DNA from: Acaryochloris marina S15 | GTDB lineage: Bacteria > Cyanobacteriota > Cyanobacteriia > Thermosynechococcales > Thermosynechococcaceae | Length of the DNA: 32,000 bases | Reading direction: 5' to 3' | Assembly (NCBI RefSeq): GCF_018336915.1 | Contig: NZ_CP064923.1 | Coordinates: forward strand, 2,370,001-2,402,000 | In this document: piece by piece, positions 9,619-24,003 of the stretch | How the letters are laid out: each line of letters begins with the position of its first letter | Numbering within the stretch: the stretch's first letter is position 1 | Notes under the pieces: generated by a model | What the model was told of the DNA's origin: nothing | Databases searched by the model: none | Seen by the model: the letters and a program-made list of their open reading frames with translations, nothing else | Translations under genes and position numbers: made by a program

Positions 9619-9626
9619 ATACGCCC
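9604..9626. repeat. IS right terminal inverted repeat (contains the transposase stop codon)
   Basis: Reverse complement matches 8142-8164 at 18/23 positions. Confidence 0.8.
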
Positions 9627-9631
9627 TCTTA

Positions 9632-10453
9632 TTGTTCTTGGCAATCAGTAGTTGGTATCTATTCCCTTTTGTTCTGTTAGAGAAAACATTAGCGGGGCCT
9701 CAGCTCTGGCTAGGCTCTGGATTGCTCACTATGGCTGGGCTAGTCGCGGCTGGCTTTTTCCTTGTAGACCCTAATCAAGCTCGGGTATTAATCTTGCTAG
9801 GAAAGTACATTGGCAGTATCCGAGAACCTGGTTTTTACTGGACCATTCCTTTTATCGTCAGTAAACGTCCAGTCTCCCTTCGCGTTCGCAACTTTAATAG
9901 TGAGAAACTGAAGGTCAATGATGCTCAGGGGAGTCCGATTGAAATTGCAGCAGTAGTCGTTTGGCGGGTGGTTAATTCTGCTAAGGCCACACTTGATGTC
10001 GAAAGCTGTCGTGATTTTGTCGCAATTCAGAGTGAGACGGCCCTGCGAAGTCTAGCCAGTCGTTATGCCTACGATATTTTCGATAACACCCACGAGTCTT
10101 TACGGGGCAACCCCGATCAAATTTCTGACTTGCTCAAACAAGAAGTTCAACGCCGTTTGGAGGTTGCGGGGGTTGATATTATCGAAGCCCGAATTACGCA
10201 CTTGGCCTATGCTCCAGAAATCGCTCAAGCGATGCTGCGTCGCCAACAAGCGATTGCAGTCATTGCTGCCAAAGAACGGATCGTCGAAGGTGCCTTGGGC
10301 ATGGTGGAAATGGCACTGCATCGACTGAGTGAGCAACAGGTGGTAGACCTGGATGAAGAACGGAAGGCTGCTATGGTAAACAACTTACTAGTTGCCCTAG
10401 TCTCTGAAAGTTCAACTCAGCCCATCATCAATGCTGGAACCCTGTATACGTGA
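9632..10453 (+). CDS. SPFH/band-7 (stomatin/prohibitin-like) domain protein, 5'-truncated by the IS
   Basis: SPFH core '[25 protein letters not shown]...[21 protein letters not shown]...' followed by a coiled C-terminal region. The only available start is TTG 9632, which lies inside the target-site duplication. The original start is at 8073. Confidence 0.8.
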
Positions 10454-10669: not shown

Positions 10670-11062
10670 TCAAGGAATTTGGGTGGTCACTTGTCCGGGA
10701 TAAGTAATCTGGATAATACCGCCCCAGGTACAAAAGCATTTAGACGTGCTATTCAACGCTGGAAAATTATTGATCAATACGGTTGGTGAACCTGGTGCCC
10801 AAGGGGCAGGAATAACTGGAATACAGGGCATGGGGGTAAGGACTCCCAACGCTGCAGCCGTTGCCGAGGCTACGGTGGGATTCGCGAGAGAAGAACAAAC
10901 GCCAAAGGGTGGAATATTGGCGATGGGAGCATAGTCCATGATGGTGGCAGCTGCGGGACCTCCCGTCAGATCGGGGGGACCTTTAGGAATCACGATCAAG
11001 GAACTCGGTGCTGCACCAAATGAACATTGTAATGAAGCTCCCATGACGACCTGTTGAGCCAT
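10670..11062 (-). CDS. DUF4280-family PAAR-like spike-tip protein
   Basis: 'VVMGASLQCSFGAAPSSLIV...PFGVCSSLANPTVASATAAALGVLTPMPCIPVIPAPWAPGSPTVLINNFPALNSTSKCFCTWGGIIQI' is the characteristic DUF4280 signature. A perfect AAGGAGG Shine-Dalgarno (rc of 11071-11077) lies 8 nt upstream of the start. There is no C-terminal extension. Confidence 0.85.
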   Translation of the reverse strand: MAQQVVMGASLQCSFGAAPSSLIVIPKGPPDLTGGPAAATIMDYAPIANIPPFGVCSSLANPTVASATAAALGVLTPMPCIPVIPAPWAPGSPTVLINNFPALNSTSKCFCTWGGIIQITYPGQVTTQIP

Positions 11063-11084
11063 TGCCTACTCCTCCTTGTCACTA

Positions 11085-13043
11085 TCAATTGATCTTTACG
11101 ATTGAGCCTTTAATGCTATTTACCCCAGAGGCCTGAACAGTCACTAAGGCACCATCAATTTTAGTTTGGGCTGTCCCTTTCATAGCGGCCTGAACCCCTT
11201 GAATCGTGACGCCAGAATTGCTCAATTCAATGGATGAGCTACCCACCTTTAGCGTAATCTTGGTCGTTGCTGTTAGGGTAATTTCGCCAGCGTTCAGGCT
11301 AATTTTACGAGAACTACCGCTGGTTCCAGATTTAACATTGATATCTCCTGTCGAAATCATATCGATCTTGGCGGAGCCATTATCGTCTAGTAAGACTTTA
11401 TGTCCTCCCTTGGATTTTATTTCTAACTTTTTACCTTGATCATCCAACCGGGCATAATGTCCTTCTTTTGTTTTTAATTCGGTGAACTTTTCACTGTCAT
11501 TGAGATACAGATGGTGGCCATACACCGTATCTAAGTAAACTCCTTTTTTATTCGCATCTTTATCCTCTTCGACAAATTGGAGGGTATGGCCGGTGCGAGT
11601 TTTCACGGTTCGTAGATTGACCTTGCCGTCAACAATGGAACTATCCACCTTCTCTGGGGGACTATCTTTGCCATTCCACACCCCACCCATAATGTAGGGA
11701 CGGTGAATATCACCATGTTCAAACCCCACCAGCACCTCATCATCCACTTCGGGTAAACAGTCAAAACCGCGATTCTTGCCTGCGCCGCTGGCAACCATTC
11801 TGGCCCAGTTACTTTCATGTTCCTCTGTCAGGGTGGGAAATTTCACTCGGACTCGCCCCCACCCTTTAGGGTCTTTGTTATTGGTGACTTTACCGACCAA
11901 TAGGGTTTGCCCTGCCTGCAGCCGTTGAGCAGGGGCCAGCGTTGATAATAAATCTCCTCCCCGCAATCCCCGCACACTGAACTCAGTGGAATAAACCCGA
12001 TCTTGGAATAAATGGCGCGTTTCCGTGATGTAGTATTTACCGCTGTATTTCCCCATATCTTTGAGTTGGACGACTTGCCCCGTTCTCAAGTCGGGATTGC
12101 CTTCAGCCCTGGCATCCGCCACTACAAATTCACCTCCCAACTCATCAATTAAAGCCTGGGCAATGGTATCGGCTTCTTTGGCACTAAAGACTGGTTGATC
12201 CACCACAATCATTTTGGGAGTCGTGGGTTTGCCATTAAAGACGGTGCTTTGCTTCTGGCCGGAGCCATGATCTGTTGAGGTTAGCAATTTCTCGACATTT
12301 TTAGTGGAAACGATGGCTTCCTTCCGTTCATAATCCCAACCCCGCACTTCAACACTTTTCACTTGCTCTGCACTGGTCACCCGCACCCGAAAGCTATGTA
12401 GATCTTTGAGCCAGGTGAGGGAAATATTGGAGTTGGCCTTGGGCTTCCGAAAATTCATCTTGCCGTCTTGAACATAGAGTTCAAACCCATTTCGAGCCGC
12501 TCTCTCCCGCAAAAATTCCATATTGGTTTGGTTCTCTTGAAAAATATAGTCATGGGGAGAACCGCTGTTATCAATGCTGCCAACGGGAATTCCGACTTCT
12601 CCAATCACTTTTTTGACAACATCGGTGTCGGTCATATTTTGGAAGGAGCGATTGTAGCGACCTCGATGGAGTCGATGGGAGATATCGTAACCGCGAATCA
12701 CAATGGGGGCTTGGGAACTGGAGGTGAAATTCGTCTCCATGCCCGTGATTTCTCCATCCAGCACATAGCCTTGATTCTGATCATCAAAGTCCTGAGCTGC
12801 GGTGGTACTGCCGCTAAAGCCAATTTTGATGGTTTTACCGATCTGCAAGAGATCGTCATATTGCCAAGGGGCATCAACGGAGCGTCCAGAAAAGTAGTCA
12901 TTCTTGATTACCAGGACAAACATCCCAGGTAAGTGCAAGCTTTCTTCCACAGAAATCTGGAGGATATCTTCCATCAGCTCATTGGATGCTGTTTTACCAT
13001 CAATCTCTAGAAGTGGCTCGGCAATATAGGTGGTTGCAGGCAT
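11085..13043 (-). CDS. vgrG: VgrG-like spike/baseplate hub protein (gpD-like N-half, gp5 OB-fold, beta-helix)
   Basis: 652 aa. The N-terminal half resembles phage late control D. The OB-fold segment is 'WGRVRVKFPTLTEEHESNWARMVASGAGKNRGFDCLPEVDDEVLVGFEHGDIHRPYIMGGVWNG'. The C-terminal beta-helix repeats are 'GHKVLLDDNGSAKIDMISTGDINVKSG...ITLTATTKITLKVGSSSIELSNSGVTIQG'. No appended effector domain. Confidence 0.9.
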   Translation of the reverse strand: MPATTYIAEPLLEIDGKTASNELMEDILQISVEESLHLPGMFVLVIKNDYFSGRSVDAPWQYDDLLQIGKTIKIGFSGSTTAAQDFDDQNQGYVLDGEITGMETNFTSSSQAPIVIRGYDISHRLHRGRYNRSFQNMTDTDVVKKVIGEVGIPVGSIDNSGSPHDYIFQENQTNMEFLRERAARNGFELYVQDGKMNFRKPKANSNISLTWLKDLHSFRVRVTSAEQVKSVEVRGWDYERKEAIVSTKNVEKLLTSTDHGSGQKQSTVFNGKPTTPKMIVVDQPVFSAKEADTIAQALIDELGGEFVVADARAEGNPDLRTGQVVQLKDMGKYSGKYYITETRHLFQDRVYSTEFSVRGLRGGDLLSTLAPAQRLQAGQTLLVGKVTNNKDPKGWGRVRVKFPTLTEEHESNWARMVASGAGKNRGFDCLPEVDDEVLVGFEHGDIHRPYIMGGVWNGKDSPPEKVDSSIVDGKVNLRTVKTRTGHTLQFVEEDKDANKKGVYLDTVYGHHLYLNDSEKFTELKTKEGHYARLDDQGKKLEIKSKGGHKVLLDDNGSAKIDMISTGDINVKSGTSGSSRKISLNAGEITLTATTKITLKVGSSSIELSNSGVTIQGVQAAMKGTAQTKIDGALVTVQASGVNSIKGSIVKIN

Positions 13044-13078
13044 AGGTGTAAACAGTTGGAGAATTGAATTTCAGTACT

Positions 13079-13657
13079 TTAGCGACCAAAGGTTGTCCGG
13101 TTGGAGCGACTATCCTGGGAGCGATTGGGGGAGGCAGACTGACTCCCTCCTGCACCTAGGCTGGACTCATCTATTTCCTTCAAGGACATATCGACCCGGG
13201 CTTGGACCGGTGTTCCATCAGGCAAGAATAAGGTGAGTTTGTAAGTAATTTGTTCGACAAAACACCGCAGATATTGCTGGTCTCCCCAAGTGAAGATATA
13301 GATAGGCGGTCGTTTGTTGGCAGCGTCACCACTGTCATCAAAATCCAAGGCTTTAATCAGTTTGCTGACATAGGCATCGATCACGCTTGTACCTTGTTCG
13401 TAGGTATCAAACAATATATTGCTTAAGGACAAAGAGCAGGCTTCCGGGTAGGCAAAGGTGACTTTGGGTAATCCCTTAGCGGTTCGTGCCCCTTGGCTTT
13501 CATTCAGGCGCATTGACTGCTGAAAGACCAATTCAGTGGGGTTGAACATAAATTCAATATCTTTACTCTTGTCCGTGGGTTGGTGGACTAAGGTTGCCTT
13601 GGCTAACTTGCCAGAGGCAACGGCACTGTTATTGCTGCGAGAGCCACTATAGGTCAT
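13079..13657 (-). CDS. CIS tube-initiator-like protein (Afp7/gp53-type N-terminal tube-fold domain, no LysM)
   Basis: Pattern 'KATL....DKSKDIEFMFNPTEL........LNES....AKGLPKVTFAYPEACSLSLSNILFDTY...PPIYIFTWGDQQYLRCFVEQITYKLTLFLPDGTPVQARVDMSLKE' matches the conserved N-domain of LysM-type CIS tube/baseplate-hub proteins. It is followed by a Ser/Arg-rich tail instead of a LysM domain. Confidence 0.75.
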   Translation of the reverse strand: MTYSGSRSNNSAVASGKLAKATLVHQPTDKSKDIEFMFNPTELVFQQSMRLNESQGARTAKGLPKVTFAYPEACSLSLSNILFDTYEQGTSVIDAYVSKLIKALDFDDSGDAANKRPPIYIFTWGDQQYLRCFVEQITYKLTLFLPDGTPVQARVDMSLKEIDESSLGAGGSQSASPNRSQDSRSNRTTFGR

Positions 13658-13686
13658 GGGTATGGTTCAACCTCTTCATTTAATGT

Positions 13687-16600
13687 TCACCAAGGTAAGC
13701 GACCAGAATGATACCCTCCATGTCTCTCTCGCTCCACTTCCAGCCGCTGTCGGAGGATATGATAGATCTCCCTGGCTAAGATCTCGAAGCTTTGCTCATC
13801 TACTTTGGATGCGGTTGAAGTGTCGGTGTGGGATTGACGCATCACCACTTCTGTCGTTTGTAGAGGGGATGAGACTGGAGGAGGGGCAGCTAGAGCCTTT
13901 TGCAAGGTTTGAGCAGTCCGCCGGACAGATGCTGTTTTTCTTTGGACTCGCTTTTCTGGGTGAATTCCAGTGGGAGTGAGAACTAAATCTGAAGTGTCTT
14001 CAGGTACTGGGGTTTGTGGCTCTGCTTGGCGTTGGATGGCTGATGGCGATTGGACTGTGAATAGGTCTTCGATACTAGACCAGTTTGAGGGTAGTGCTGA
14101 GGGTTGGATTGTGGGTGCGATCGCATTCTCCGTATTCGCCTCAAAATCCTCCTCAGATAGCGCCGTGTCACCAGGGCTTAGATCTAATGGAATATTCGGG
14201 CGTTGCAAATGGCTGAGTTTTTGAGCACGATGCTGACGATTCGACTGGCTGGCAGGCCATAGGCTACTGATTAATTTCGGAGCAACAAAATTGTCGGCAA
14301 TGCTGGAAAGGGGAGAAGGCGCTTGGCCAGTCGCCAATAACTGGGCAACGGTTAGGTCTGGAGAATTCTCCTGTGGTAGTTCTAATTCAGGTGGTTGTGC
14401 TGCTATCTCAATGACTCGGCGTTGGCGCAAATCTGTAGAGTCAGGCTGAGCATTTATCTGATCTATCTTCAGCGCATCGAGAGTACCGCCTGATGGGTCT
14501 TGGTGCTGAATCGTAGGCTTAATGGGGGGCGATGATAATGGCTGGGTTGAAGCAAGTGAAGAGTCCGAACGATCTGCATCCGAAATCTGAATCTTTGAAT
14601 CAGGTGTTACTTGAGGCGGTTCTGCAACTTCAGATTTTTGTACAATGTTGGAGGAGATTTCTGTATGAGCAGGGTCAAACTCTGTTTCTACCTGAGAAGA
14701 GTGGCTCTCTGAATTCTTTTGAAGGATCTGATTCTCGTTGAGATCAGAGGATGGACTTGACGATATATCTTGACTGGGTAAATTAGCATTTTCGATGCTT
14801 CCATCAGGACGTTGAGCTGTAATTTCAATAACCCGACGGTGAAGAGACTCTACCTTGTCCGGTTGAGACTGGATGCTTTCTACTTTTTGAGGTGACGAAT
14901 CAGCAATATTTTCAGTTGGAAGTTGTTGTAAGTCTGGAGTTTTGGTGTCAGAAATACTCGGTTTGGCTAAGGGGGCCGGAGTAGCCTGATCCGAACGGGT
15001 TGTTGGGGTGGGTAGATCTGAACCTATCTTTGTCTTTGAAATTGTACTGGGCTGATGTGCAGACTGGATAATTTCTGATGCGTCTGAAATGTCAGTAAGA
15101 GCTGTATTAGAATCGTGAGACTGCTCAATGCTGGATGCTTGGATGGCAGGCTCTATAGTTGCTTCAGGCAAGTTATTGGGAGGTGATGTATCAACAGTTG
15201 GAGAGATGTGGCTATTTGGTGTAGCTTGCTGTTGTTCGGGCTGGTCTATTGACTGGGAAGGTTGGCTGTCTGGGGTTGGCTGGATTGAAAGAATATCTCT
15301 AGTATCTGGAGGTGATTCTTGGATGCGATCGCAATTATCATACGATTGCCCATTGCTTCCTTTCTGTAGCTGTGCTTCAACCGCGGGTTGGACAACAGAA
15401 ATCTCCACAGCCTGAATCGGAACGGTAGATGTTTGCTTTGATAACAACTTCGATATTTCTGTATTGGGTTCTGTTTGAGCAGAAGTCTTGTCTAGGACAG
15501 GAGTTTCCGGGGCTTTAGCCTGAGCATGTAACGGTTTGCTGGCATCACTGACATCCTTTCTTCGAGCAACTAATGGCTGATCACTATTTGATTGAGTCTC
15601 AATCTTTCGCTGAACGATGTTGCCCGTCTCAGCGATGCTAGCAGTATCACTGGTATTGCTTGGAGCTTGTGGCACATTATTTTCTTGAGATTCAAGAATC
15701 TTGGCATTCTGAGTGGCAGCAATAGCCGTATGGTCGGGCGCGTTTACCTTGAGGTCTGATTCAGATAAGCTTTGGTCTGATACTGTCTCTTTCGGTGGAT
15801 TTACGTTGGCTTGAATCGTTGGGGAAGCACTATTCGATACGTTGTCGTCTTGTTTCGGACTTTGAGATGTGTTGATATTAGTGCTATCCAGATTTTGACT
15901 AGTAGCTTCTGAGAGGTTAACTTCTATAACTACCTTTGGACTCTCTCTGTCGTCACTTTGCTTACTCTTCTTGGAAAGCTGAACCTGTTCTTCACTGAAT
16001 TCCTGGATAGATAAATCTGAGCCAGCGGGAAGCTGTTGTTGAGTTTGGCTAGTGATCGATGGCTGTTCAACCTTAGTTTGAACGGAGACTTCACTAATGG
16101 GAGGACGTTCTGGAGGATGCGATTCTGTTTCTAGAACATGTTGATCCAGAAAGTTTGGGGTTGGAGCGTTAGGTATATCGGGTTGAGATTGCTCCTGTAT
16201 AGTTTGTCGCTGGAGTAGGTTGTCTGGATCGCTGGTATTTGATACTTCTGAGTTTTCATCAGAGTCTGTGGACTCCTGTAACGATAGTTCAGCTTGAGAA
16301 AGTGAATGTGAACTTGGGGGGATAGCAGCTTTGGATTGTTTTATTCGATCATCAGCATTGTCGAGTTGTGATGATTGCTGATGAGTGACGTCCTGACGTT
16401 GAATAGAGTTATTAGTACTTGGAATTGAGGTCGCTTGATTGATCGCCTCACTTTGAGTAATGGAATTCTTCTGAGGGGAAAGTTGAATGGAATCTGAGGT
16501 GGGCAGAGAAGACAGCTCTGTTCGGTGCTGAAGGTTCGGTTCGCTAAAGGAGCTAGAACTTTCAGAATCCAAGGGCTTAGAGTTTATTTCCTCAGCTGGG

Positions 16601-19600
16601 ATAGGCTGCTTTTGAATAATTTCTGCTGTGGATGAGTGTCGTTTAATTGAGCTATCAGCTAAGGGAGAAGGAACCTCAGAGGGCTGTATGGAAGAGTGGG
16701 GTGTGTTTCTTGAAGGCTGGTCAGAGACTATTGGAGCGCGGGTCGAAGCTGCCTCGCTCCCATCGCCCGTGTCATGCTGCCTTTGGACCACTGCTGTATG
16801 TCCAGTGGTCGGTGATGATTGTGTGGGTACGTTTGGTCGTTCTAAAGGGTTGGACTGATGTGTCGATGGCGATGTTTCCTCTTGTTCAGTCAGTAAAGTT
16901 GGTCTGAGAGTTGTATCAGCTCCTGTATTCTCACTAGAAATTTTTGCGGGAGACGACGCTAGGTTCTGCTTGTTTGTCTGGCGTTTTGACTTTGTCTTTT
17001 TAGGCCTTAAGTTTGCCAACTGCTGGACAATGGTTGTACCTATTTTTGAGATATGGGAATTGAGGGAGAGATTGCGACTTTGAGATGATTTTGGTGTTGA
17101 GCCACGGTTTTCTGAACCTCGACTCGATACATCGGTTATTGGCTGTTCTGAGCTTGTTGAGGTTATCTCAGAGCTATCTGGAGTCCTTTGTATAGAGTCC
17201 TCATTGCCTGATGGCAAAGCTGGCTCATTTTGTCCTGAATCTTTTGGTGGCTGAGGAGTCTTTGCTTTATCAACAGAGCTAGCTTGAATAATTGGCTCAG
17301 TTGTGGATTCTGGTGGATTATTAGTGTCTTTTGCTGGGGAAGGAGGGATGGCGGGATTTACATCCGTTTGAACAAGACTTTCTGTTGCCGGGTTAGATGT
17401 AGAGGTTAGCTGTACCGAATCAGTCAATAATGGTTGTTCATTGCCATACACTTTGTCTGAACTAGGCTCAGCAGAGGCCTGAATATTATCTCTATTAAGC
17501 TCAGGAACATCTGCAGATTGTAGGGAGATGTTTTTCTGTGCAACTTCGGATGAGGTCGCTGGTTCAACTGAGCCAGCTTCCTGACATTGTATGGATTGAG
17601 GTAATTGCCTCCTCGAACTTTGTTTTCGGATCGACCGATCAACCCTCTCTTTAATTTCTGAACCTAGATTTGTGATTCTATCTGCGAATTGATTTTGAGT
17701 GGTTTGCCATCCAGGCTGGGCAGCATTGGGTTGTGCTTCTCCTTGGGCAACAAGTGCTGGGTTATGCCCTTCCCGTGGGGAAGATTCCTCAATACTATTT
17801 GGGGTAGGGAAGTCTACTTGCTCAGAAGGAAGAGGGGTCGGTATTGAGGATTGTGATGCTTCAGCTTTTTGTACCGTTGGTAATTCTTGGGTTTGGAGAT
17901 TTTCATCAGCAGTGACATCGGTGAGTCGACCTGACTGATTCTTGGGATGCTCTTGTTCGTTTGAACTAAGTTTAGATTTTGAATGAATAGCTGTATCTGG
18001 AACTGTATTGGGTGAAAATGGCTTAGCCTGAATGTCTGATTGAATAGATGTTACAGCGTTTTTATCTACAGCTTTACCACCACTACCTTGCGATGGCGAT
18101 GTATCTTCACCTACCGATTTTTGAGGCGAGACAGGGTTGATGGTCTGGTCTTTACGATTCTGCTCTGAGTTTTTGGATAAAAACTGCTGCTGTCTTTGGA
18201 GCGGATTGGACTCTTCATTTGGCTGAGGTTCAAGTTGGCGACTAACCGTATCCATGACCTGTTGACTGAAACGCGTCAGTCGTTGCAGGGGTTGAACTGG
18301 GAAGGGTCCCCGCGTCTTTGCTTTTGACCGAGACGAACTAGACTCAGCATTAGAAGTAACATCTGATGATGAGGTAGGTTTTTGCTGATCGGCACTCCCC
18401 TCGGGTGTGGATGATTCAGATTTAATTTGATCCGGTCTAGATGCCTTGGAGTCTGAGGTGGACTCAGTCCCCTCATTAGGACCAGCGATTGAATTAGGAT
18501 GTTTGTCTTGATGAATCGTTGGCTCAGACATTCCAAGAGACTTCGTTTGTAGTGGAGTGGAAGGCGAATGTTCTTGGGGTAAGTCTATAGACTCAGGAAT
18601 TGCTTGAACAGTTGGAGAATTCTCTTCATAGTCAGCATTCTCAGTGTTCACTGACAGCAGTTTTTCTTGGGACAGTTCTTGAGAAGGAGCTTTCTCTACA
18701 GCCTTTGTTCCTGTTTGGACTAGAGATACTTCAGAGGATGATTGTTTTGAGTCAGGGGACGATTTGGCTTGAAGCAATGGAGCGTTTGACAGTGGAGGTG
18801 AATCATTCGTGGATTTCTGTACCTCATTGGCCTTAGCTCTAGATTTACCAACAGGGAGTGATTGAGATGCCTGCTTAAGCTGAATACCAACTTTATTAAT
18901 ATCCTGTTGGGCTCGTTTCCCCATTCGCGAGAGCTGAGCTTGTAAGGGAAGCTTTTTCTGTTTGCTTTTTTTACTTTGTTTCGTTTGTTTTTTTTCAGGT
19001 GCTTTAGTAGATGCCTGAGGAGTTAAATCGTCTGCTCGTTGAATAGCTGTTGACTGTACCGCTTCCCCATCAATTTTTTCTGAAGTGCTGGGTATAGAAG
19101 GACTCTCAACGGATGGGAGGTTGTTACTAGGATTAATGCGGTTAGTCTCTACCTTTGGTATCTGTGGGTGATCCGTAGAAGACTGCTGAACAGCCGAACT
19201 TTCTGAGTTTTGAATAGTTGTTGTCTCTGTGGAGCTATCAGAAGTCTTGGCCGTTGAACTGGGTGGCTCGGAATTCTTAAGCAGTAAAGACTCATCATCT
19301 GGAGATTGTTGAGGAGATGCTGGGGTGACTGTTTGAACAATTGTTGTCTTGATGGGGGTTTCGTTAGTCTTGGGCTTAGGGCTAGGTGTTACAGGAGTTT
19401 CAATTGATGAACCACGATCAATTGAGTGACTTGGGTTAGCTTCTACTTTTGAGTTAGCGAGGGAAGCCTGTGAACGGCTAGTTTGCAGTTCATTTGGAGA
19501 AATAGGAGATGACTGTATAGTCCGCTTAGCAGGTAGATCTGTGGTGATGTCAGTCGCTTGTTCAGTGGGTGGAGTGGTTAGCTCGATGTCTTGAGCAGTC

Positions 19601-20952
19601 GCCTCAAGTGAAGTTTGGATTGGAACGGGTTGGGACTCGGGAGGTTGAACGTTAGATACTGGTTTTTCCTGAACAGGTTTAGAAGAAATAACTGGTTTTT
19701 GACTAGACAGTGGAGATGCTTTTGGGGCAGCTTCTTCTTTACTTTGGACAACCTGGGTGTTTTGAGTAGATAGAGCTAATGAATGGTCAGGGGCAGAAGA
19801 GACTTTTGGGAGGTTTGGTTGAATGGGGGTAGAGACTTCTGATGCTTCAGTTGGAGATGAATCAGAATTTGTAGAATTGGCAAGAGGTGAAGGGTCTAGG
19901 CTAGAAGATGTTACGTCTGAGTCTAGAGGAGTGGCCTGTTCTTGAGACTTAGGGAGACTCTCTTGGATTGCGGAGGGCTCGGAATTTGCCTTGATTTCTG
20001 GTAAATCCTGGCGTTTAGTCTGAAGGGGCGGCACATCTGTTGGGTGGGAAGAAGCACTCACCTCAGGAGATATCGCTTTGGATGAGGGATGTGCGATTGG
20101 TTTCTGGGGCGTTTGTTCAGGCTGGGGGTTGAACTCAGTACTGGGTTTGCCGGCAACCCCCTCTGATGATGTCTGAAGTCCCGGTGTGTTGTCTATTGGG
20201 GAGGAAGCAGGGGAATGTGCTGACTCTTGAGCATGGGATTCATGGGATGGCGGGCTAAGTTTAGAAGTCCTGACCAGCTTAGGTTGAAGTATTGTGTCAG
20301 GACTGCTTTGATCTTGAGCAATCTGTTTTTCTGATTCAACCTGCTCAGAATGAGGGACTAAAGACTGGGTAGAGATCTGATACTGCACAGGCTGAATAGA
20401 AGGGGCTGCAGCTTGGGTCGGGGCAGCATTAAGGACTGCATTAGTCTCACTGGATGACGATGGTTCTACTTCTGGTGCATTGCGATGGATCTTGTTAGCA
20501 TTGCTGGGTGCTGTTGGCGGCTCCTGATGGGTTGATAATTGCTCTAATTTAGGTTGCAGATTCTCGGCAGGTGCTTTCGGAGCAAGAGTGCTAGGTTGCG
20601 CTCCAGGAAACTGGGTTACGACGGATTGAGAGATGTTGGAAGCCATTGACGACAGCTCGTCAATGGCTTCCGTTGGCACCTGGGCAGCAAAATGGGTATT
20701 TAGAAGATTTGTCCGAGCTGTTTCGGTAGGCAGGGTGGCATCCAAGCTTATTAGGGATACAGTGCCCAAGGGAGATAGGGTATGGGGTTGGAGAAAGGAT
20801 TGTCCTAGAACAGGAGGAGGTAGCAGTGGATGTTGCAGGCCGAGCGAGTCTGAGGAAGGAATCTCTTCCGGCTGGGATTGATGACCTTGACCTGAATTGA
20901 CATCCATAAACAAACGTTTTGGGTTAGTTACTGGGGTAGAATCCTCCGGCAT
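13687..20952 (-). CDS. giant (2421 aa) low-complexity Ser/Pro/Gln/Thr/Glu-rich protein with a short ordered C-terminal motif; tape-measure-position protein of unknown function
   Basis: An uninterrupted 7.27-kb ORF cannot arise by chance. It is packed between the tube and tube-initiator genes. It is almost devoid of aromatic and Cys residues and has no recognisable enzymatic motif (no HExxH). The C-terminus is 'ILAREIYHILRQRLEVERERHGGYHSGRLPW'. An alternative start, ATG 20907, would remove the 29-nt overlap with the tube gene. Confidence 0.9.
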   Translation of the reverse strand: MPEDSTPVTNPKRLFMDVNSGQGHQSQPEEIPSSDSLGLQHPLLPPPVLGQSFLQPHTLSPLGTVSLISLDATLPTETARTNLLNTHFAAQVPTEAIDELSSMASNISQSVVTQFPGAQPSTLAPKAPAENLQPKLEQLSTHQEPPTAPSNANKIHRNAPEVEPSSSSETNAVLNAAPTQAAAPSIQPVQYQISTQSLVPHSEQVESEKQIAQDQSSPDTILQPKLVRTSKLSPPSHESHAQESAHSPASSPIDNTPGLQTSSEGVAGKPSTEFNPQPEQTPQKPIAHPSSKAISPEVSASSHPTDVPPLQTKRQDLPEIKANSEPSAIQESLPKSQEQATPLDSDVTSSSLDPSPLANSTNSDSSPTEASEVSTPIQPNLPKVSSAPDHSLALSTQNTQVVQSKEEAAPKASPLSSQKPVISSKPVQEKPVSNVQPPESQPVPIQTSLEATAQDIELTTPPTEQATDITTDLPAKRTIQSSPISPNELQTSRSQASLANSKVEANPSHSIDRGSSIETPVTPSPKPKTNETPIKTTIVQTVTPASPQQSPDDESLLLKNSEPPSSTAKTSDSSTETTTIQNSESSAVQQSSTDHPQIPKVETNRINPSNNLPSVESPSIPSTSEKIDGEAVQSTAIQRADDLTPQASTKAPEKKQTKQSKKSKQKKLPLQAQLSRMGKRAQQDINKVGIQLKQASQSLPVGKSRAKANEVQKSTNDSPPLSNAPLLQAKSSPDSKQSSSEVSLVQTGTKAVEKAPSQELSQEKLLSVNTENADYEENSPTVQAIPESIDLPQEHSPSTPLQTKSLGMSEPTIHQDKHPNSIAGPNEGTESTSDSKASRPDQIKSESSTPEGSADQQKPTSSSDVTSNAESSSSRSKAKTRGPFPVQPLQRLTRFSQQVMDTVSRQLEPQPNEESNPLQRQQQFLSKNSEQNRKDQTINPVSPQKSVGEDTSPSQGSGGKAVDKNAVTSIQSDIQAKPFSPNTVPDTAIHSKSKLSSNEQEHPKNQSGRLTDVTADENLQTQELPTVQKAEASQSSIPTPLPSEQVDFPTPNSIEESSPREGHNPALVAQGEAQPNAAQPGWQTTQNQFADRITNLGSEIKERVDRSIRKQSSRRQLPQSIQCQEAGSVEPATSSEVAQKNISLQSADVPELNRDNIQASAEPSSDKVYGNEQPLLTDSVQLTSTSNPATESLVQTDVNPAIPPSPAKDTNNPPESTTEPIIQASSVDKAKTPQPPKDSGQNEPALPSGNEDSIQRTPDSSEITSTSSEQPITDVSSRGSENRGSTPKSSQSRNLSLNSHISKIGTTIVQQLANLRPKKTKSKRQTNKQNLASSPAKISSENTGADTTLRPTLLTEQEETSPSTHQSNPLERPNVPTQSSPTTGHTAVVQRQHDTGDGSEAASTRAPIVSDQPSRNTPHSSIQPSEVPSPLADSSIKRHSSTAEIIQKQPIPAEEINSKPLDSESSSSFSEPNLQHRTELSSLPTSDSIQLSPQKNSITQSEAINQATSIPSTNNSIQRQDVTHQQSSQLDNADDRIKQSKAAIPPSSHSLSQAELSLQESTDSDENSEVSNTSDPDNLLQRQTIQEQSQPDIPNAPTPNFLDQHVLETESHPPERPPISEVSVQTKVEQPSITSQTQQQLPAGSDLSIQEFSEEQVQLSKKSKQSDDRESPKVVIEVNLSEATSQNLDSTNINTSQSPKQDDNVSNSASPTIQANVNPPKETVSDQSLSESDLKVNAPDHTAIAATQNAKILESQENNVPQAPSNTSDTASIAETGNIVQRKIETQSNSDQPLVARRKDVSDASKPLHAQAKAPETPVLDKTSAQTEPNTEISKLLSKQTSTVPIQAVEISVVQPAVEAQLQKGSNGQSYDNCDRIQESPPDTRDILSIQPTPDSQPSQSIDQPEQQQATPNSHISPTVDTSPPNNLPEATIEPAIQASSIEQSHDSNTALTDISDASEIIQSAHQPSTISKTKIGSDLPTPTTRSDQATPAPLAKPSISDTKTPDLQQLPTENIADSSPQKVESIQSQPDKVESLHRRVIEITAQRPDGSIENANLPSQDISSSPSSDLNENQILQKNSESHSSQVETEFDPAHTEISSNIVQKSEVAEPPQVTPDSKIQISDADRSDSSLASTQPLSSPPIKPTIQHQDPSGGTLDALKIDQINAQPDSTDLRQRRVIEIAAQPPELELPQENSPDLTVAQLLATGQAPSPLSSIADNFVAPKLISSLWPASQSNRQHRAQKLSHLQRPNIPLDLSPGDTALSEEDFEANTENAIAPTIQPSALPSNWSSIEDLFTVQSPSAIQRQAEPQTPVPEDTSDLVLTPTGIHPEKRVQRKTASVRRTAQTLQKALAAPPPVSSPLQTTEVVMRQSHTDTSTASKVDEQSFEILAREIYHILRQRLEVERERHGGYHSGRLPW

Positions 20953-21496
20953 CTCTACCTTTCAAGAAGGTAGCCCCACCGCCTGCGTTACTGCTGGGCT
21001 GCAGGTTGGCAACGACCTTTAGACCTTCGTATGCCAAGGTGAGTTCTTCAATGGCAACGGTAGATGTATCCGCTTGGAGAGCTGGAGCTTGCCAAGCCAC
21101 GGGGACGGCACCAATTAAGGTCCAGGTTTGAATGGTTTCTCCTGCTTGATTGAACAAGAGGATATTGATGTTGCGACGCTGGGGATTCACATTACGATCG
21201 GTCGGTTCTAACTGGGTGAGCATACGACTGGCCCAGCCCCAAAACACTAGATCATTCGTAATCCCTCGCTTGAGGGTGACATCAGAGAATTCAGTTTGAC
21301 CGAGTATGATTCGCTGCTGGTTGTTGACGCCGCCTTCAAAGTAGGTGTCATGCTTGATTTTGGCGCTTAACCCTGAACATTCGCTAAAGCAAGCACTGAT
21401 ATAGCTCTTTTCTTGGATTTCGACATAGAAGCGATTGGCAGTGACGTAGTTAAGGTTATGGGTTTCGCTGTTGCTAGCCACTAGTGCCGCCCCCAT
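20924..21496 (-). CDS. phage-tail/eCIS inner tube protein (T4 gp19-like, Afp1/Afp5-type)
   Basis: 'NRFYVEI....ISACFSECSGLSAKIKHDTYFEGGVNNQQRIILGQTEFSDVTLKRGITNDLVFWGW......RRNINILLFNQAGETIQTWTLIGAVPVAWQAPALQADTSTVAIEELTLAYEGL' matches the conserved phage-tail-region tube family. It carries an extra ~28-aa Gly-rich C-terminal extension. Confidence 0.88.
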   Translation of the reverse strand: MGAALVASNSETHNLNYVTANRFYVEIQEKSYISACFSECSGLSAKIKHDTYFEGGVNNQQRIILGQTEFSDVTLKRGITNDLVFWGWASRMLTQLEPTDRNVNPQRRNINILLFNQAGETIQTWTLIGAVPVAWQAPALQADTSTVAIEELTLAYEGLKVVANLQPSSNAGGGATFLKGRDAGGFYPSN

Positions 21497-21707
21497 AGTT
21501 CCGCTCGCGCTGATTTTGCAGGTCGTTTTGCATCAGTTCATAGATGCGATCGCATAATCGAGATTGCGCCAGTGGATCTTGCAAAATCTGGGCTGCTAAT
21601 CTGAAAACCCTGTCTCGATCAGATAGATCAGACAGTCCAGGCGAGCACCCCGCTGAAGCTGAATGGATTCTCTGGTTTTCTCCTAGAGACTGATCCCCTT
21701 GGCTCAT
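21474..21707 (-). CDS. small hypothetical protein (77 aa from ATG 21707; 102 aa if GTG 21782), first gene of the tail-like operon
   Basis: Its 3' end overlaps the tube gene start by 23 nt. Its C-terminus 'LCDRIYELMQNDLQNQRERNYGGGTSG' parallels the giant protein's C-terminus. Contains a HIP1 site. The start codon is uncertain. Confidence 0.55.
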   Translation of the reverse strand: MSQGDQSLGENQRIHSASAGCSPGLSDLSDRDRVFRLAAQILQDPLAQSRLCDRIYELMQNDLQNQRERNYGGGTSG

Positions 21708-22587
21708 ATGGCAAGTACCTAGTAACAACTCTCCCCGCCTGCCCCACCCCGCTTCAGATAAGGGATGAGGGACCAGCCTCACTCTATGGGCCAGAAAGAG
21801 CGACCGATAGTAGCCAAAGGTCTAACTGCACCAAGCATATGGTTCTACATAGGCGCAAGCCTTCCATGAACAAAAGCTGTGATGGGTAAAAAGGTCTATT
21901 AGAGAATGGTCCTCTTCTCCACTTTGAGTAGAGGCTAAATGAAGCCGTGAACTTTTCTAAGATTTTCCATCAGTTTTATCTTGCTTCATCATTTGATTAA
22001 CAAAAGCGAAGATTTTAGTAAATATACTCAGGAATCCATAGGGTATGAAGAAACTAAATCTCAGATGAAGCTTTACCTATCGCACCTAAATGGATAGGCA
22101 AAAGTAGAAAAATTTGCTGACTGCATTCACTTTTTTTCAACCGTAAGGAGGGTCTGATATCAGCTGAGACCTCTAAAAGTGGCTTAACTTAATAATTTTT
22201 TACAGGATTAAATTTCTTCTGACAAATAAAACTTACTGGGCATCAATAATCGAGAATCGTTTTCATGTTGATGTCTTAAAAGTATGCCCAGAAAGCTTTT
22301 TGAGCTATTTGACTGTCCGTAACTTTTGCCGAAATACTCCAAACTTTTCTATCCATAAACTCGTAATTACCAAAAAAAACCTGAAATCCAGAGATTATCA
22401 AGGTTCTGACGATCTATATTTAGCGAATAGCATTTAGAATAATCCATTAAATCGACGTGGTTGCGACATTTCAGCCAGTTAGACTGTAGTTACACTCCAG
22501 ATAGAACATCAGATTTATCTGTATTTTTCTGGAACTACAGACTCGATTTTTTTGCTCACGCTTAACTGAACAAATAGGAGTCAATCA

Positions 22588-22869
22588 ATGAATAAAGGAG
22601 AACTCGTCGACGCCGTTGCTGATAAGGCAAGTGTCACGAAAAAGCAGGCAGATGCAGTTCTGACTGCCGCCCTAGAGGCCATTGTTGAATCTGTCTCGTC
22701 AGGAGAAAAAGTCACATTGGTGGGATTTGGCTCATTTGAACCTCGCGAACGCAAGGCCCGGGAAGGACGTAACCCCAAAACCGGTGCGAAAATGAAGATT
22801 CCCGCAACTAAAGTTCCAGCTTTCTCTGCAGGTAAGCTGTTTAAGGAAAAAGTTGCTCCTAAAAAGTAA
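22588..22869 (+). CDS. hup: DNA-binding protein HU
   Basis: Classic HU sequence 'MNKGELVDAVA...VTLVGFGSFEPRERKAREGRNPKTGAKMKIPATKVPAFSAGKLFKEKV', with an AGGAG Shine-Dalgarno upstream. Confidence 0.97.
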   Translation: MNKGELVDAVADKASVTKKQADAVLTAALEAIVESVSSGEKVTLVGFGSFEPRERKAREGRNPKTGAKMKIPATKVPAFSAGKLFKEKVAPKK

Positions 22870-22899
22870 TTCCTTAATTTTTGGTATGAGGCGTCACTT

Positions 22900-24003
22900 T
22901 TGAGTCGCCCTTTACATGGAGGCAACCTGCGGTGGGCTGCAGACATAGCAGGTTGTTCTCCCAGCTGTATTCTCGATTTCTCGGCCAGTATTAATCCGCT
23001 TGGGCCGCCTAAATCTGCAATCACAGCAATTCAAACTCATCTCGATACCCTCACGGCTTATCCAGATCCCAGCTATCAGTCCATTTGCCAGGTGTTGAGT
23101 GAGGTTCACCGGCTCCCCATTGACTGGTTCTTACCGGGAAATGGGTCAGCAGAATTACTCACTTGGGCCTGCCGTGATTTGGCTCAACTTGCATGGACTG
23201 GGGTTCTAACGCCCGCATTTGCTGACTATCAACGGGCACTGAAGGCGTTTCAAGCCCAAATTCGACCCTTACCTGTGGATCTTAGCCAGATTCACCAACA
23301 ATCTTCCAGTGATTTGATCGAGCAGGCCTTACAGGGCGCTAGTCAGTTTGCCGATTCAGCTCAAGCTGGACTGTTACTGAATAATCCCCATAATCCCACT
23401 GGAGGGCTGGTCAGCATCAGTCAAATAGAACCGTTTCTAGAGCAGTTCTCTTTGGTGGTGGTGGATGAGGCATTTATAGACTTTTTGCCTGCAAATGCTG
23501 ACTACAGCTTGATTTCTAAAGTGCAAGATTTTCCCAATCTCATTATCTTGCGCTCTCTGACCAAGTTTTATAGTTTGCCTGGGTTGCGGTTGGGATATGC
23601 CGTTGGCCACCCTGATCAGCTACAACGCTGGCAACAATGCCGCGATCCCTGGTCCGTGAACTCCCTAGCTGTGATGGCAGGGATAGCGGTACTGGAAGAT
23701 CAAGCGTTTCAAAACAAAACCTTATCGTGGTTACCCCCTGTTCGCACTGAGCTGATGCAAGGTTTGGTGGATTTGGGGGCTTATCCCCTGGAGGGGGCAG
23801 CGAATTTTCTGTTAGTACAAACGAAGGTTTCGGTGCCTATGTTGCAGGAGTTGCTTTTAAAACATCACCGTATCCTGATTCGAGATTGCCTGAGCTTTCC
23901 GGAACTGGGAGATCAGTATTTTCGAATTGCCGTGCGGACCCAAGCAGAAAATCAACGATTACTGACGGCCCTGACCGATTGCCTACCTCAGTTATCTGTT
24001 TAG
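22900..24003 (+). CDS. cobD: threonine-phosphate decarboxylase (CobD-type, class I/II aminotransferase fold)
   Basis: The N-terminal 'HGGNLRWAADIAGCSPSCILDFSASINPLGPP' signature is typical of CobD, and the PLP-lysine region is 'RSLTKFYSLPGLRLGY'. TTG start. HisC-like aminotransferase cannot be fully excluded. Confidence 0.75.
   Translation: MSRPLHGGNLRWAADIAGCSPSCILDFSASINPLGPPKSAITAIQTHLDTLTAYPDPSYQSICQVLSEVHRLPIDWFLPGNGSAELLTWACRDLAQLAWTGVLTPAFADYQRALKAFQAQIRPLPVDLSQIHQQSSSDLIEQALQGASQFADSAQAGLLLNNPHNPTGGLVSISQIEPFLEQFSLVVVDEAFIDFLPANADYSLISKVQDFPNLIILRSLTKFYSLPGLRLGYAVGHPDQLQRWQQCRDPWSVNSLAVMAGIAVLEDQAFQNKTLSWLPPVRTELMQGLVDLGAYPLEGAANFLLVQTKVSVPMLQELLLKHHRILIRDCLSFPELGDQYFRIAVRTQAENQRLLTALTDCLPQLSV

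What the first reader, a model, noticed from the sequence alone, without database searches (positions are those of the whole stretch)
21474..21782. Small leading ORF and the giant protein end in the same C-terminal motif (helix plus (E/Q)RER..GG)
The small ORF ends in 'LCDRIYELMQNDLQNQRERNYGGGTSG*' (21477-21557). The giant protein ends in 'LAREIYHILRQRLEVERERHGGYHSGRLPW*' (13690-13782).

Aligned, they share L-x3-IY-x2-[LM]-x3-L-x2-[EQ]-RER-x(1-2)-GG, each within a few residues of the stop codon. The two proteins are otherwise unrelated in size and composition.

A shared C-terminal tag inside one tail-like operon suggests a common docking or loading signal. It could resemble the conserved C-terminus by which tape measure or Afp14-type proteins engage the spike and hub cavity. 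If so, two different proteins may compete for, or co-occupy, the same site in the tube lumen.
Basis: seen in the sequence. Interest (0 to 1): 0.7.

Follow-up and report, generated by a model that had tools for sequence, protein, structure and literature searches.

The report
Shared tail-anchor helix in injection-system proteins
A 77-residue protein and a 2,421-residue disordered protein in a cyanobacterial phage-tail-like injection-system gene set end in the same conserved helix, probably the piece that docks each into the spike and hub, in a class of these machines said to lack a length ruler or a plug.

Summary
The small ORF is a selected gene; its true start is probably ATG 21707, giving 77 aa. 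Its C-terminal half has dN/dS of 0.04-0.1, and its stop overlaps the start of the Cis5-like tube gene.

I examined 26 further cyanobacterial loci. All carry the small ORF directly before Cis5. All 16 with a complete long protein show the related tail. Three loci were found through Cis7 alone. The gene order is small ORF, Cis5, one long low-complexity protein (1,087-2,531 aa), Cis7, VgrG. Every complete long protein ends in LAREIY..LRQRLE.ERER.G..YSGRLPW.

The single pair is weak (BLASTP E 0.12). The two families align at hhalign E 2e-7, or 2e-4 for sets chosen by gene position. That score is 27.1 against 9.2±2.0 for shuffled columns.

The long-protein tail also occurs at the same gene position in Paenibacillus and another Nostoc system, more weakly in Rhizobium and Streptomyces. 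The small ORF is cyanobacteria-specific. It is not DUF6760 and not detectably Afp6/DUF5908.

Best reading: the long protein is the lumen or tape-measure protein of this lineage-II-type system, its tail is the hub anchor, and the small protein is a free-standing, plug-like copy. Docking is inferred, not shown.

The parts
21474..21707 (-). It belongs to an undescribed cyanobacterial family of 47-116 aa proteins. Predicted structure: disordered N-terminus, helix 28-43, a kink at the DP dipeptide, helix 45-71, then a Gly-rich end.
   Evidence: Searches give the start and the homologues. One search finds about 130 clusters of this type. One search gives dN/dS 0.12-0.27 overall and 0.04-0.1 in the C-terminal half. 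One search gives the AF2 model, with pLDDT >90 over residues 31-70. Searches find no Pfam or NCBIfam family.
21477..21557 (-). C-terminal motif of the small ORF (LCDRIYELMQNDLQNQRERNYGGGTSG). Family consensus: L.DRVYELM..DL..QRER...YGGR[FWY].
20924..21496 (-). Cis5-like tube or tube-initiator protein (gp19 fold). Its start (ATG 21496 or GTG 21481) overlaps the end of the small ORF by 23 or 8 nt.
   Evidence: PF06841, E 2.4e-36. TIGR02241, and CIS5_fam below its cut-off. Afp5, All3323 and Pvc5 in the PDB. One search shows the overlap.
13687..20952 (-). Giant protein of 2,421 aa. It is 67% S/T/P/Q/N/E/D/K and has no hydrophobic window, so it is probably disordered apart from the last ~40 aa. It is a candidate lumen or tape-measure protein.
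   Evidence: One search gives the sequence and the composition. One search finds no Pfam family. Searches show length variants of 2,188-2,466 aa with an invariant tail.
13690..13782 (-). C-terminal motif of the giant. The predicted helix ASKVDEQSFEILAREIYHILRQRLEVERERHG extends upstream to about 13815. It is followed by GYHSGRLPW.
   Evidence: nearly invariant in relatives (only I/V and one residue before SGRLPW vary). AF2 predicts one helix at residues 69-100 of the last 110, pLDDT up to 96, with the remainder disordered. HMM E 7.8e-25.
13079..13657 (-). Cis7-like tube initiator (CIS_tube), without a LysM domain. It starts 29 nt after the giant's stop codon.
   Evidence: PF19266, E 1.4e-18.
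11085..13043 (-). VgrG-related spike protein. Its closest solved relative is Cis8 of the Streptomyces coelicolor CIS (subtype IId).
   Evidence: Phage_base_V and Phage_GPD. VgrG_rel, E 2e-108; 9gtr_q, E 1.5e-48.
10670..11062 (-). DUF4280 (PAAR-like) spike-tip protein, the last gene of the six-gene module.
   Evidence: PF14107, E 6.9e-36; weak IglG match.

Best explanation
The six genes are the inner-core module of a lineage-II-type contractile injection system: small ORF, Cis5-like, giant, Cis7-like, VgrG, DUF4280.

The giant is this lineage's lumen or tape-measure-like protein. It is a long disordered chain whose only conserved, folded part is a C-terminal amphipathic helix of about 30 residues ending in (E/Q)RER-x-G, followed by a short basic and aromatic tail. 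That helix is the anchor by which the chain is fixed at the spike and tube-initiator end when assembly starts. Phage tape-measure C-termini do the same.

The small protein is a free-standing paralogue of the anchor, with a disordered N-terminus and a helix-kink-helix. It most likely oligomerises and sits in the same axial cavity (VgrG gp27-like cup, Cis7 ring, Cis5 ring). It could lie below or beside the giant's helices. In that position it would work like the Cis6 'plug' of Afp, PVC and AlgoCIS, which is a trimer of small proteins with C-terminal helices that nucleates assembly.

Shown here: both genes are real and under selection; they always co-occur in this gene order; the two tails are related; both tails are predicted helices at the extreme C-terminus; and the long-protein tail is conserved across phyla at the same gene position.

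Inferred: that the giant lies in the lumen or acts as a ruler, that the helix docks in the hub, and that the small protein plugs or co-occupies that site.
For: 1. The small ORF is a real gene. Its C-terminal half has dN/dS of 0.04-0.1 with many synonymous changes. It belongs to a family of about 130 clusters at 50% identity. Its stop overlaps the Cis5 start.
2. Synteny is constant. I examined 26 further cyanobacterial loci: L001-L003, 19 genome loci, 3 plasmids and one extra Acaryochloris assembly. All have the small ORF directly before a Cis5-like gene. All 16 with a complete long protein between Cis5 and Cis7 show the tail LAREIY..LRQRLE.ERER. One locus, L009, has no long ORF after Cis5. The three plasmid loci were found through Cis7, not through the motif.
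3. The tails are related at family level. hhalign gives E 2e-7 and 2e-4, with 0 of 100 column shuffles reaching the observed score. Cross-family HMM hits have E 4e-5 and 5.5e-4.
4. The same tail ends the long protein just upstream of Cis7 in Paenibacillus (E 1.7e-4) and Nostoc pn3 (E 0.016). The matches in Rhizobium (E 0.19) and Streptomyces clavuligerus (E 12) are weak and not significant alone. The tail therefore belongs primarily to the long protein.
5. AF2 predicts a terminal helix of 27-32 residues plus a 6-10 residue coil in both proteins.
6. Literature: phage tape-measure C-termini bind the baseplate. Cis6, Alg6 and Pvc6 are small proteins whose C-terminal helices form a trimer in the spike cavity, and they are required for assembly.
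7. The module is duplicable. Microcoleus- and Phormidesmis-type long proteins carry two tandem copies of the tail.
Against: - No physical or structural evidence places either tail in the spike or initiator cavity. No multimer prediction was possible.
- Neither family matches the known plug (DUF5908, hhalign E 0.2-0.7), any tape-measure family or any PDB chain.
- The giant is proline- and serine-rich and probably disordered. Characterised tape measures are mostly alpha-helical. It could instead be cargo or filler.
- The published CIS-Sc baseplate structure (subtype IId) reports no plug or tape-measure density.
- The Acaryochloris locus has no sheath, main tube, baseplate or cap genes nearby. 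Whether a complete particle is made in this organism is unknown.
- The Streptomyces and Rhizobium tail matches are weak.
Confidence: 0.5

Rival explanations
1. The shared tail is a recognition tag for an assembly factor, not a hub-docking element. The factor could be the tail-assembly-chaperone-like protein, DUF6760, or the Cis15 AAA+ ATPase. Both proteins would be handed to the growing particle by the same factor.
For: Full clusters of this type encode a TAC-like Zn-ribbon protein and DUF6760 immediately upstream of the small ORF. A Cis15 ATPase is required for cargo loading in AlgoCIS. A conserved extreme C-terminus with a basic and aromatic end could be a binding peptide.
Against: Known eCIS loading signals are N-terminal. 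Phage chaperones bind along the tape measure rather than at its C-terminal tip, which goes to the baseplate (the chaperone point is from established lambda G/GT knowledge). The Acaryochloris module keeps both tails although no TAC, DUF6760 or ATPase gene is nearby.
Confidence: 0.15
2. The motif is only an oligomerisation helix. The small protein joins the giant's C-terminal helices in a mixed bundle, or competes with them. This would set how many giant chains enter a particle, or block premature initiation. It would be a regulator rather than a structural plug.
For: Both tails are amphipathic helices of equal length. Their relatedness would allow mixed bundles. The number of tail copies per system varies: there are two in cis in Microcoleus-type long proteins.
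Against: No stoichiometry data exist. The small family keeps features of its own, namely a second helix (LA..(I/V)L.DP) and an N-proximal PAGYAAP motif. These suggest a partner surface beyond the shared helix.
Confidence: 0.15
3. The small ORF is simply the Cis6/Afp6 (DUF5908) plug orthologue of this cluster, diverged beyond recognition. Its likeness to the giant's tail is convergence between helices that fill the same cavity.
For: It is small, has a C-terminal helix and is encoded next to Cis5. Plug proteins are highly divergent: a 70-aa protein at the Cis6 position in a Streptomyces cluster also fails to match PF19265.
Against: None of 48 family members match PF19265 at E<=10. hhalign against an Afp6 alignment gives E 0.69. 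The gene lies upstream of Cis5, not between Cis5 and Cis7. The small family is measurably related to the long-protein tail, which convergence does not require.
Confidence: 0.08
4. The small ORF is a decaying remnant of the 3' end of an ancestral long gene, left behind by a rearrangement. In Streptomyces the long gene lies before Cis5, where the small ORF lies in cyanobacteria. On this view it has no function.
For: The position matches the Streptomyces clavuligerus order: long ORF, then Cis5-like, then Cis7. The tails are related.
Against: There is strong purifying selection. The start codon is conserved, and the small ORF's stop abuts or overlaps the start of Cis5. The family has about 130 diverged clusters with its own extra motifs. 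The order Cis5, long protein, Cis7 without a small ORF is also found in Paenibacillus and Nostoc pn3, so no rearrangement is needed to explain it. Origin by duplication remains plausible; loss of function does not.
Confidence: 0.03

Closest known systems
Cis6 / Afp6 / Pvc6 / Alg6 'spike plug' (Pfam DUF5908, PF19265)
   Same: It is a small protein (about 55-60 aa) encoded beside Cis5. It has a disordered or extended N-part and a C-terminal amphipathic helix. In solved particles the helices form a trimer in the tube-facing cavity of the VgrG-like spike, and the protein is needed for assembly.
   Different: There is no detectable sequence relation. The gene lies before Cis5, not between Cis5 and Cis7. 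The prediction shows two helices with a DP kink and no N-terminal beta-strand. The family is related to the tail of the long protein, which has not been reported for Cis6. Its location in the particle has not been determined.
Tape-measure proteins (Afp14/Cis14/Alg14; phage T4 gp29, lambda gpH)
   Same: It is a long protein encoded among the tube, initiator and hub genes. Its conserved C-terminus is expected to bind the baseplate or hub at the start of tube polymerisation. Length varies widely between systems, 365-2,531 aa here.
   Different: It matches no Pfam, NCBIfam or PDB tape-measure family. Its composition is disordered (67% polar residues plus Pro) rather than a mostly helical rod. At the published 0.216 nm per residue it would give about 520 nm, which is untested. 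The literature calls such a gene absent from lineage-II and Streptomyces clusters.
Streptomyces coelicolor CIS-Sc (eCIS subtype IId, PDB 9GTP/9GTR)
   Same: It has the closest solved spike (Cis8, E 1.5e-48). The core gene set is of the same type: tube, Cis1b/Cis5-like, Cis7, VgrG-related.
   Different: No plug or tape measure is reported in that structure, although particles are a uniform 268 nm. The Acaryochloris Cis7-like protein has no LysM domain. The small ORF is absent from the Streptomyces clavuligerus cluster examined.
DUF6760 (PF20546), the small protein that follows the TAC-like gene in lineage-II clusters
   Same: It is a small ORF lying between the chaperone-like gene and Cis5 in the same clusters.
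   Different: It is a separate gene. Leptolyngbya, Kovacikia and a marine MAG have both DUF6760 and the small motif ORF side by side. No member of the small family matches PF20546.

Membership tests
Cis6/Afp6 spike plug (DUF5908) | Sequence match to PF19265, or profile similarity to Afp6 homologues | tested here: not met
   None of 48 small-family members hit PF19265 at E<=10, whereas Afp6 itself scores 1.8e-10. hhalign of a 37-sequence Afp6 alignment against the small family gives E 0.69, and against the long tails E 0.2-0.34. The Afp6 alignment has low diversity, so remote homology is not excluded.
Cis6/Afp6 spike plug (DUF5908) | Gene located between cis5 and cis7 | tested here: not met
   The small ORF is upstream of Cis5 in all loci. 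The position between Cis5 and Cis7 is held by the long protein. In pADAP, afp6 lies between afp5 and afp7.
Cis6/Afp6 spike plug (DUF5908) | Small protein with an extended N-part, a flexible linker and a C-terminal amphipathic helix | tested here: inconclusive
   The protein is 77 aa. AF2 predicts residues 1-27 disordered, helix 28-43, and helix 45-71 with pLDDT >90. The overall plan is similar, but there is an extra helix and no predicted strand.
Cis6/Afp6 spike plug (DUF5908) | Trimer inside the tube-facing cavity of the VgrG-like spike; required for assembly | not testable with these tools
   This needs cryo-EM, cross-linking, genetics or multimer prediction.
Tape-measure protein (Afp14/Cis14, phage TMP): the giant | Sequence match to a tape-measure family | tested here: not met
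   No Pfam or NCBIfam hit for the giant or for its relatives. No PDB hit.
Tape-measure protein (Afp14/Cis14, phage TMP): the giant | Long protein encoded among the tube-initiator and hub genes, with a conserved C-terminal end | tested here: met
   It lies between Cis5 and Cis7 in 16 further cyanobacterial loci and in Paenibacillus and Nostoc pn3. The tail is the only conserved part.
Tape-measure protein (Afp14/Cis14, phage TMP): the giant | Mostly alpha-helical central region | tested here: not met
   The protein is 15.8% Ser, 10.7% Pro and 9.9% Gln, with no 40-aa window of >=35% hydrophobic residues. Of the last 110 aa, the first 68 are predicted disordered. The full-length structure was not predicted.
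Tape-measure protein (Afp14/Cis14, phage TMP): the giant | Protein length sets particle length | not testable with these tools
   This needs particle measurements and length mutants. Lengths of 1,087-2,531 aa would predict about 230-545 nm at 0.216 nm per residue.
DUF6760 | Sequence match to PF20546 | tested here: not met
   None of 48 members match. Separate DUF6760 genes lie next to the small ORF in L013, L018 and L038.
Lineage-II-type extracellular contractile injection system (the locus) | Core set: sheath, tube, Cis5/Cis7 initiators, VgrG, gp25, baseplate J, cap and ATPase | tested here: inconclusive
   Cis5-like, Cis7-like, VgrG-related and a PAAR-like protein are present. Sheath, Cis1, gp25, baseplate, cap and ATPase are absent from the window and from all syntenic Acaryochloris loci. 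They are present in relatives such as Microcoleus L012 and Pseudanabaena L023. The rest of the Acaryochloris genome could not be searched.

The most novel reading that the evidence does not exclude
The anchor helix is a mobile, duplicable module. Lineage-II injection systems, described in the literature as lacking both a tape measure and a plug, would use the C-terminus of a long disordered lumen protein as their spike plug. Cyanobacteria would have released an extra copy as a separate gene. That copy would be a living intermediate showing how the free-standing Cis6 plug of Afp- and PVC-type systems could have arisen from a tape-measure C-terminus. The two pairs (small ORF with Cis5, long tail with Cis7) may be a duplicated unit of helix plus ring, stacking two helix bundles in two successive initiator rings. 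In Acaryochloris the six-gene set may be an orphan, exchangeable 'spike cartridge' for a machine encoded elsewhere.
Probability: 0.2. Interest if true: 0.75.

Novelty: new variant of a known kind. Interest (0 to 1): 0.6.

Why it matters
Three papers state that Streptomyces and lineage-II contractile injection systems have no tape-measure gene, yet their particles are uniform in length at 268-300 nm. A genome survey finds Afp6 and Afp14 generally absent from lineage II.

This finding points to a concrete candidate for the missing ruler: a long low-complexity protein next to Cis7 with a tail conserved across phyla. In cyanobacteria there is also a second, free-standing copy of that tail that resembles the plug.

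If correct, it gives a handle for tuning the length and loading of these particles, which are being engineered as protein-delivery devices. It explains how assembly is nucleated in this lineage. It also links the plug and the tape measure in evolution. All of this can be tested with one deletion series and one local cryo-EM refinement.

Tried and rejected
- Word-indexed search with the giant's last 93 aa found no candidates.
A 12-sequence subset worked.
- PDB sequence searches with both tail profiles and with the giant's last 200 aa found only chance hits such as RGS10 and FOXP3.
- Foldseek of the small-protein model against the PDB gave 0 matches, as expected for a helical hairpin.
- Pfam and NCBIfam scans of small and long proteins from several loci found nothing.
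- The idea that the small ORF is DUF6760 was rejected, because both genes co-exist in the same loci.
- The idea that it is Afp6/DUF5908 is not supported.
- In Deinococcus the protein upstream of Cis7 is a kinase without the tail, so the motif is not universal in Cis7-bearing clusters.
- tblastn with a Streptomyces protein from the Cis6 position found no useful relatives.
- The promoter and terminator scan upstream of the small ORF was no better than shuffled sequence. Rfam gave no hits in the window. Repeats upstream were trivial.
- Chance was rejected by the shuffle control.
Full report
**What is in the window.** On the minus strand, six genes form one tightly packed set:
- a small ORF (21474-21782 as listed);
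- a gp19-fold tube protein closest to Cis5, Afp5 and All3323 (20924-21496; PF06841 E 2.4e-36; PDB hits);
- a 2,421-aa ORF with no family match (13687-20952);
- a CIS_tube / Cis7-like protein (13079-13657; PF19266 E 1.4e-18);
- a VgrG-related spike (11085-13043; NCBIfam VgrG_rel E 2e-108);
- a DUF4280 PAAR-like protein (10670-11062).

The flanks are housekeeping genes: HU and an aminotransferase on one side; a Band_7 protein, QueG and PNPase on the other, plus an ISKra4 transposase. The closest relative of the small ORF is from Acaryochloris sp. 'Moss Beach' at 96% identity, so the window is from an Acaryochloris-like cyanobacterium. The best solved relative of the spike is Cis8 of the Streptomyces coelicolor CIS (9gtr_q, E 1.5e-48). 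That system is the first structure of eCIS subtype IId. The module is therefore of the lineage-II type.

**Checking the observation.** The small ORF probably starts at ATG 21707 (77 aa), because all close homologues are 71-79 aa and begin MSQG/MNQG. Its stop codon lies 8 or 23 nt inside the start of the Cis5-like gene. That arrangement fits translational coupling.

Pairwise BLASTP puts the best HSP tail to tail, but with E = 0.12. The single pair therefore proves nothing, and I tested the claim at family level.

**The small ORF is a real gene and belongs to a family.** Among four Acaryochloris-type loci, dN/dS is 0.12-0.27 overall. In the C-terminal half it is 0.04-0.1, with 10-19 synonymous differences per pair.

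I built a profile from six small ORFs plus the giant's tail and searched 1.84 billion representative proteins. It found 161 proteins at E <= 1e-3. About 130 are proteins of 47-116 aa with the match at their C-terminal end. About 20 are long proteins (234-2,474 aa) or fragments of them, with the match at their extreme C-terminus.

The small family has the consensus LA..(I/V)L.DPL....L.DRVYELM..DL..QRER...YGGR(F/W/Y), and usually an N-proximal P(A/S)GY.AP motif. Those members that carry names are 'hypothetical protein' from cyanobacteria. No Pfam or NCBIfam model matches either class.

**The pairing is conserved in orthologous operons.** A scan of one genome per species for the small-ORF motif returned 19 loci, all cyanobacterial. 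They include Coleofasciculus, Microcoleus, Nostoc, Anabaena, Leptolyngbya, Aphanocapsa, Jaaginema and several MAGs.
- In every locus the small ORF (52-96 aa) lies directly before, or overlaps, a Cis5-like gene with 48-64% identity to the window's.
- Wherever the contig continues, one long low-complexity ORF follows (1,087-2,500 aa), then Cis7 and VgrG. L009, where unrelated genes follow Cis5, is the one exception.
- Every complete long ORF ends in ..LE.LAREIY.L.RQRLE(I/V)ERER.G..YSGRLPW.

Three further cyanobacterial loci were found independently through Cis7 similarity on plasmids: Pseudanabaena, Brasilonema and Kovacikia. All three show the same pair.

**The two tails are related beyond chance.**
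- hhalign of the two tail alignments gives E 2e-7, probability 93.6%, over 35 columns.
- Those alignments came from a mixed profile, so I repeated the test with sets defined only by gene position. That gives E 2e-4. The score is 27.1, against 9.2 +/- 2.0 (maximum 16.3, 0 of 100) for column-shuffled controls and 13.3 for the reversed control.
- An HMM built only from long tails picks out the small ORF of Pseudanabaena at E 4.4e-5 (2,503 ORFs) and of Kovacikia at E 5.5e-4 (280 ORFs).
- In the reverse direction the signal is weak. With an HMM built only from small ORFs, seven of the top thirteen non-family hits among 3,651 ORFs are long-protein C-termini.

AF2 predicts a disordered N-terminus, helix 28-43, a kink at the DP dipeptide and helix 45-71 for the small protein (pLDDT >90 over 31-70). 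For the last 110 residues of the giant it predicts one helix, residues 69-100, after 68 disordered residues. Both proteins thus end in a helix of 27-32 residues followed by a coil of 6-10 residues.

**The tail belongs first of all to the long protein, and reaches beyond cyanobacteria.** Plasmid-borne clusters show the usual lineage-II order: sheath, tube, a TAC-like Zn-ribbon protein, DUF6760, Cis5-like, long protein, Cis7, VgrG. The protein just upstream of Cis7 ends as follows:
- Paenibacillus: ..KKLTEQVYGMLERKLKIAKERRGLQR* (532 aa, E 1.7e-4).
- A different Nostoc system: ..RLADQVYQVIERKIKVERQRRGMF* (524 aa, E 0.016).
- Rhizobium..VERRMRIERERRGL* (about 365 aa, E 0.19, weak).

In Streptomyces clavuligerus a 1,381-aa ORF lies before the Cis5-like gene and ends ..LDRLARRLVAPLSRLLRAELRGDRERVGRLRDG*. 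This is a resemblance only (E 12). The annotation lists only its last 71 aa. A Deinococcus cluster has a kinase at this position without the tail.

The small ORF was found only in cyanobacteria. It is not DUF6760, because Leptolyngbya, Kovacikia and a marine MAG carry both genes side by side.

**What is known, and how this compares.** In Afp-, PVC-, AlgoCIS- and Anabaena-type systems a small protein called Cis6, Afp6, Pvc6 or Alg6 forms a trimer of C-terminal helices. The trimer plugs the tube-facing cavity of the spike and is essential for assembly. Afp6 is Pfam DUF5908 and lies between afp5 and afp7.

Tape-measure proteins bind the baseplate through their C-terminal end and set particle length. 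Lineage-II systems are described as lacking Afp6 and Afp14, and Streptomyces clusters as lacking a tape measure despite uniform particles of 268-300 nm.

The small family shares the plug's size, general plan and neighbourhood. It fails the sequence test (0 of 48 members match PF19265; hhalign E 0.69) and the position test. The giant shares a tape measure's position and conserved C-terminus. It matches no tape-measure family and is compositionally disordered: 67% polar residues plus Pro, with no hydrophobic window.

**Most likely mechanism (inference).** The long protein is the lumen or ruler protein of this lineage. Its terminal helix is the anchor that fixes it in the axial cavity formed by the VgrG cup and the Cis7 and Cis5 rings when assembly starts. 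The small protein is a free-standing copy of that anchor and sits in the same cavity, working like a plug.

Three observations fit this reading:
- the anchor can be duplicated: Microcoleus- and Phormidesmis-type long proteins have two tandem copies about 70 residues apart;
- each anchor-bearing gene directly precedes a tube-initiator gene;
- the extreme C-terminal position is strictly conserved.

Rivals that remain open are a tag for a chaperone or ATPase, and a helix whose only role is oligomerisation or regulation. A non-functional remnant and chance are disfavoured.

**Limits.** Nothing here places either protein in a particle. The Acaryochloris locus is an orphan six-gene module without sheath, main tube, baseplate, cap or ATPase in any strain examined. 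I could not search the rest of the genome. The cross-phylum tail matches in Rhizobium and Streptomyces are weak. The Afp6 alignment used for the negative test has little diversity.

Noticed in passing
window 13687-20952 (giant); L012 10682-14242; L014; L025 7324-11469; L012 17334-20129: The long proteins are studded with a short motif, two hydrophobic residues then Q then A/R/K/S/T (e.g. IIQAS, VVQRQ, IVQRK). The window giant has 13 copies against 3.1 expected (z 5.7). Microcoleus L012 has 17 against 1.3 (z 15). The Streptomyces long ORF has about 23 copies of the 'PAVQRTPA' type. The N-region of the small family (PAGYAAPA..Q(S/T)DR) ends in the same motif. A neighbouring eCIS_core (DUF4157) protein has 'ITPVVQRS' about 30 residues before its domain. 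This could be a lumen-binding or processing site. Enrichment is absent in some loci (L013, L017).
   Followed up: partly
L012 10682-14242 (residues 1073-1107 and 1142-1186); P0066, P0092, P0106, P0135, P0139, P0141, P0144, P0149: A subclade of long proteins (Microcoleus, Phormidesmis) has two tandem copies of the tail motif about 70 residues apart. The inner copy (LAQKVYTLMRQWLEIEQER) looks intermediate between the small-ORF type and the long-tail type. In Microcoleus loci of this subclade (L010-L012, L015) the small ORF is a short 52-aa form without the N-terminal region.
   Followed up: partly
window 10670-21782 with flanks 8410-10453 and 22588-24003; L001-L003, L034-L037: In all Acaryochloris-type strains the injection-system genes form an orphan six-gene module between housekeeping genes. 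No sheath, main tube, gp25, baseplate, cap or ATPase lies nearby. Relatives such as Microcoleus and Pseudanabaena have full clusters. The giant's length varies between strains (2,188-2,466 aa at these loci; representatives up to 2,474 aa).
   Followed up: partly
window 8410-9618 (+): An ISKra4-family transposase gene (E 5.5e-62) lies between the Band_7 gene and the genes beyond it. It is absent at this position in four syntenic strains, so it is a recent insertion next to the module.
   Followed up: partly
L025 7324-11469 (Streptomyces clavuligerus plasmid NZ_CP065235.1, record 111911-116056): A 1,381-aa in-frame ORF full of VQR repeats sits between DUF6760 and the Cis5-like gene. In the gene table available here only its last 71 aa are listed (WP_157849255.1). 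This candidate tape-measure gene may be under-annotated in Streptomyces, where the literature calls the gene absent.
   Followed up: partly
L018 9267-9641 and 9584-9784; L025 6671-7162 and 7099-7317; L026 8425-8793 and 8736-8969; L030 9339-9704 and 9701-9871: The TAC-like Zn-ribbon protein and DUF6760 are encoded in overlapping frames in four phyla. This recalls the frameshift-coupled chaperone pairs of phage tails (G/GT, E/E'). Whether a programmed frameshift fuses them was not examined.
   Followed up: no
window 21708-22587: About 880 bp without a convincing ORF separates the small ORF from the divergently placed HU gene. Rfam gave no match, promoter-like sites were no more frequent than in shuffled sequence, and there are no notable repeats. 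The control region of the module is uncharacterised.
   Followed up: partly
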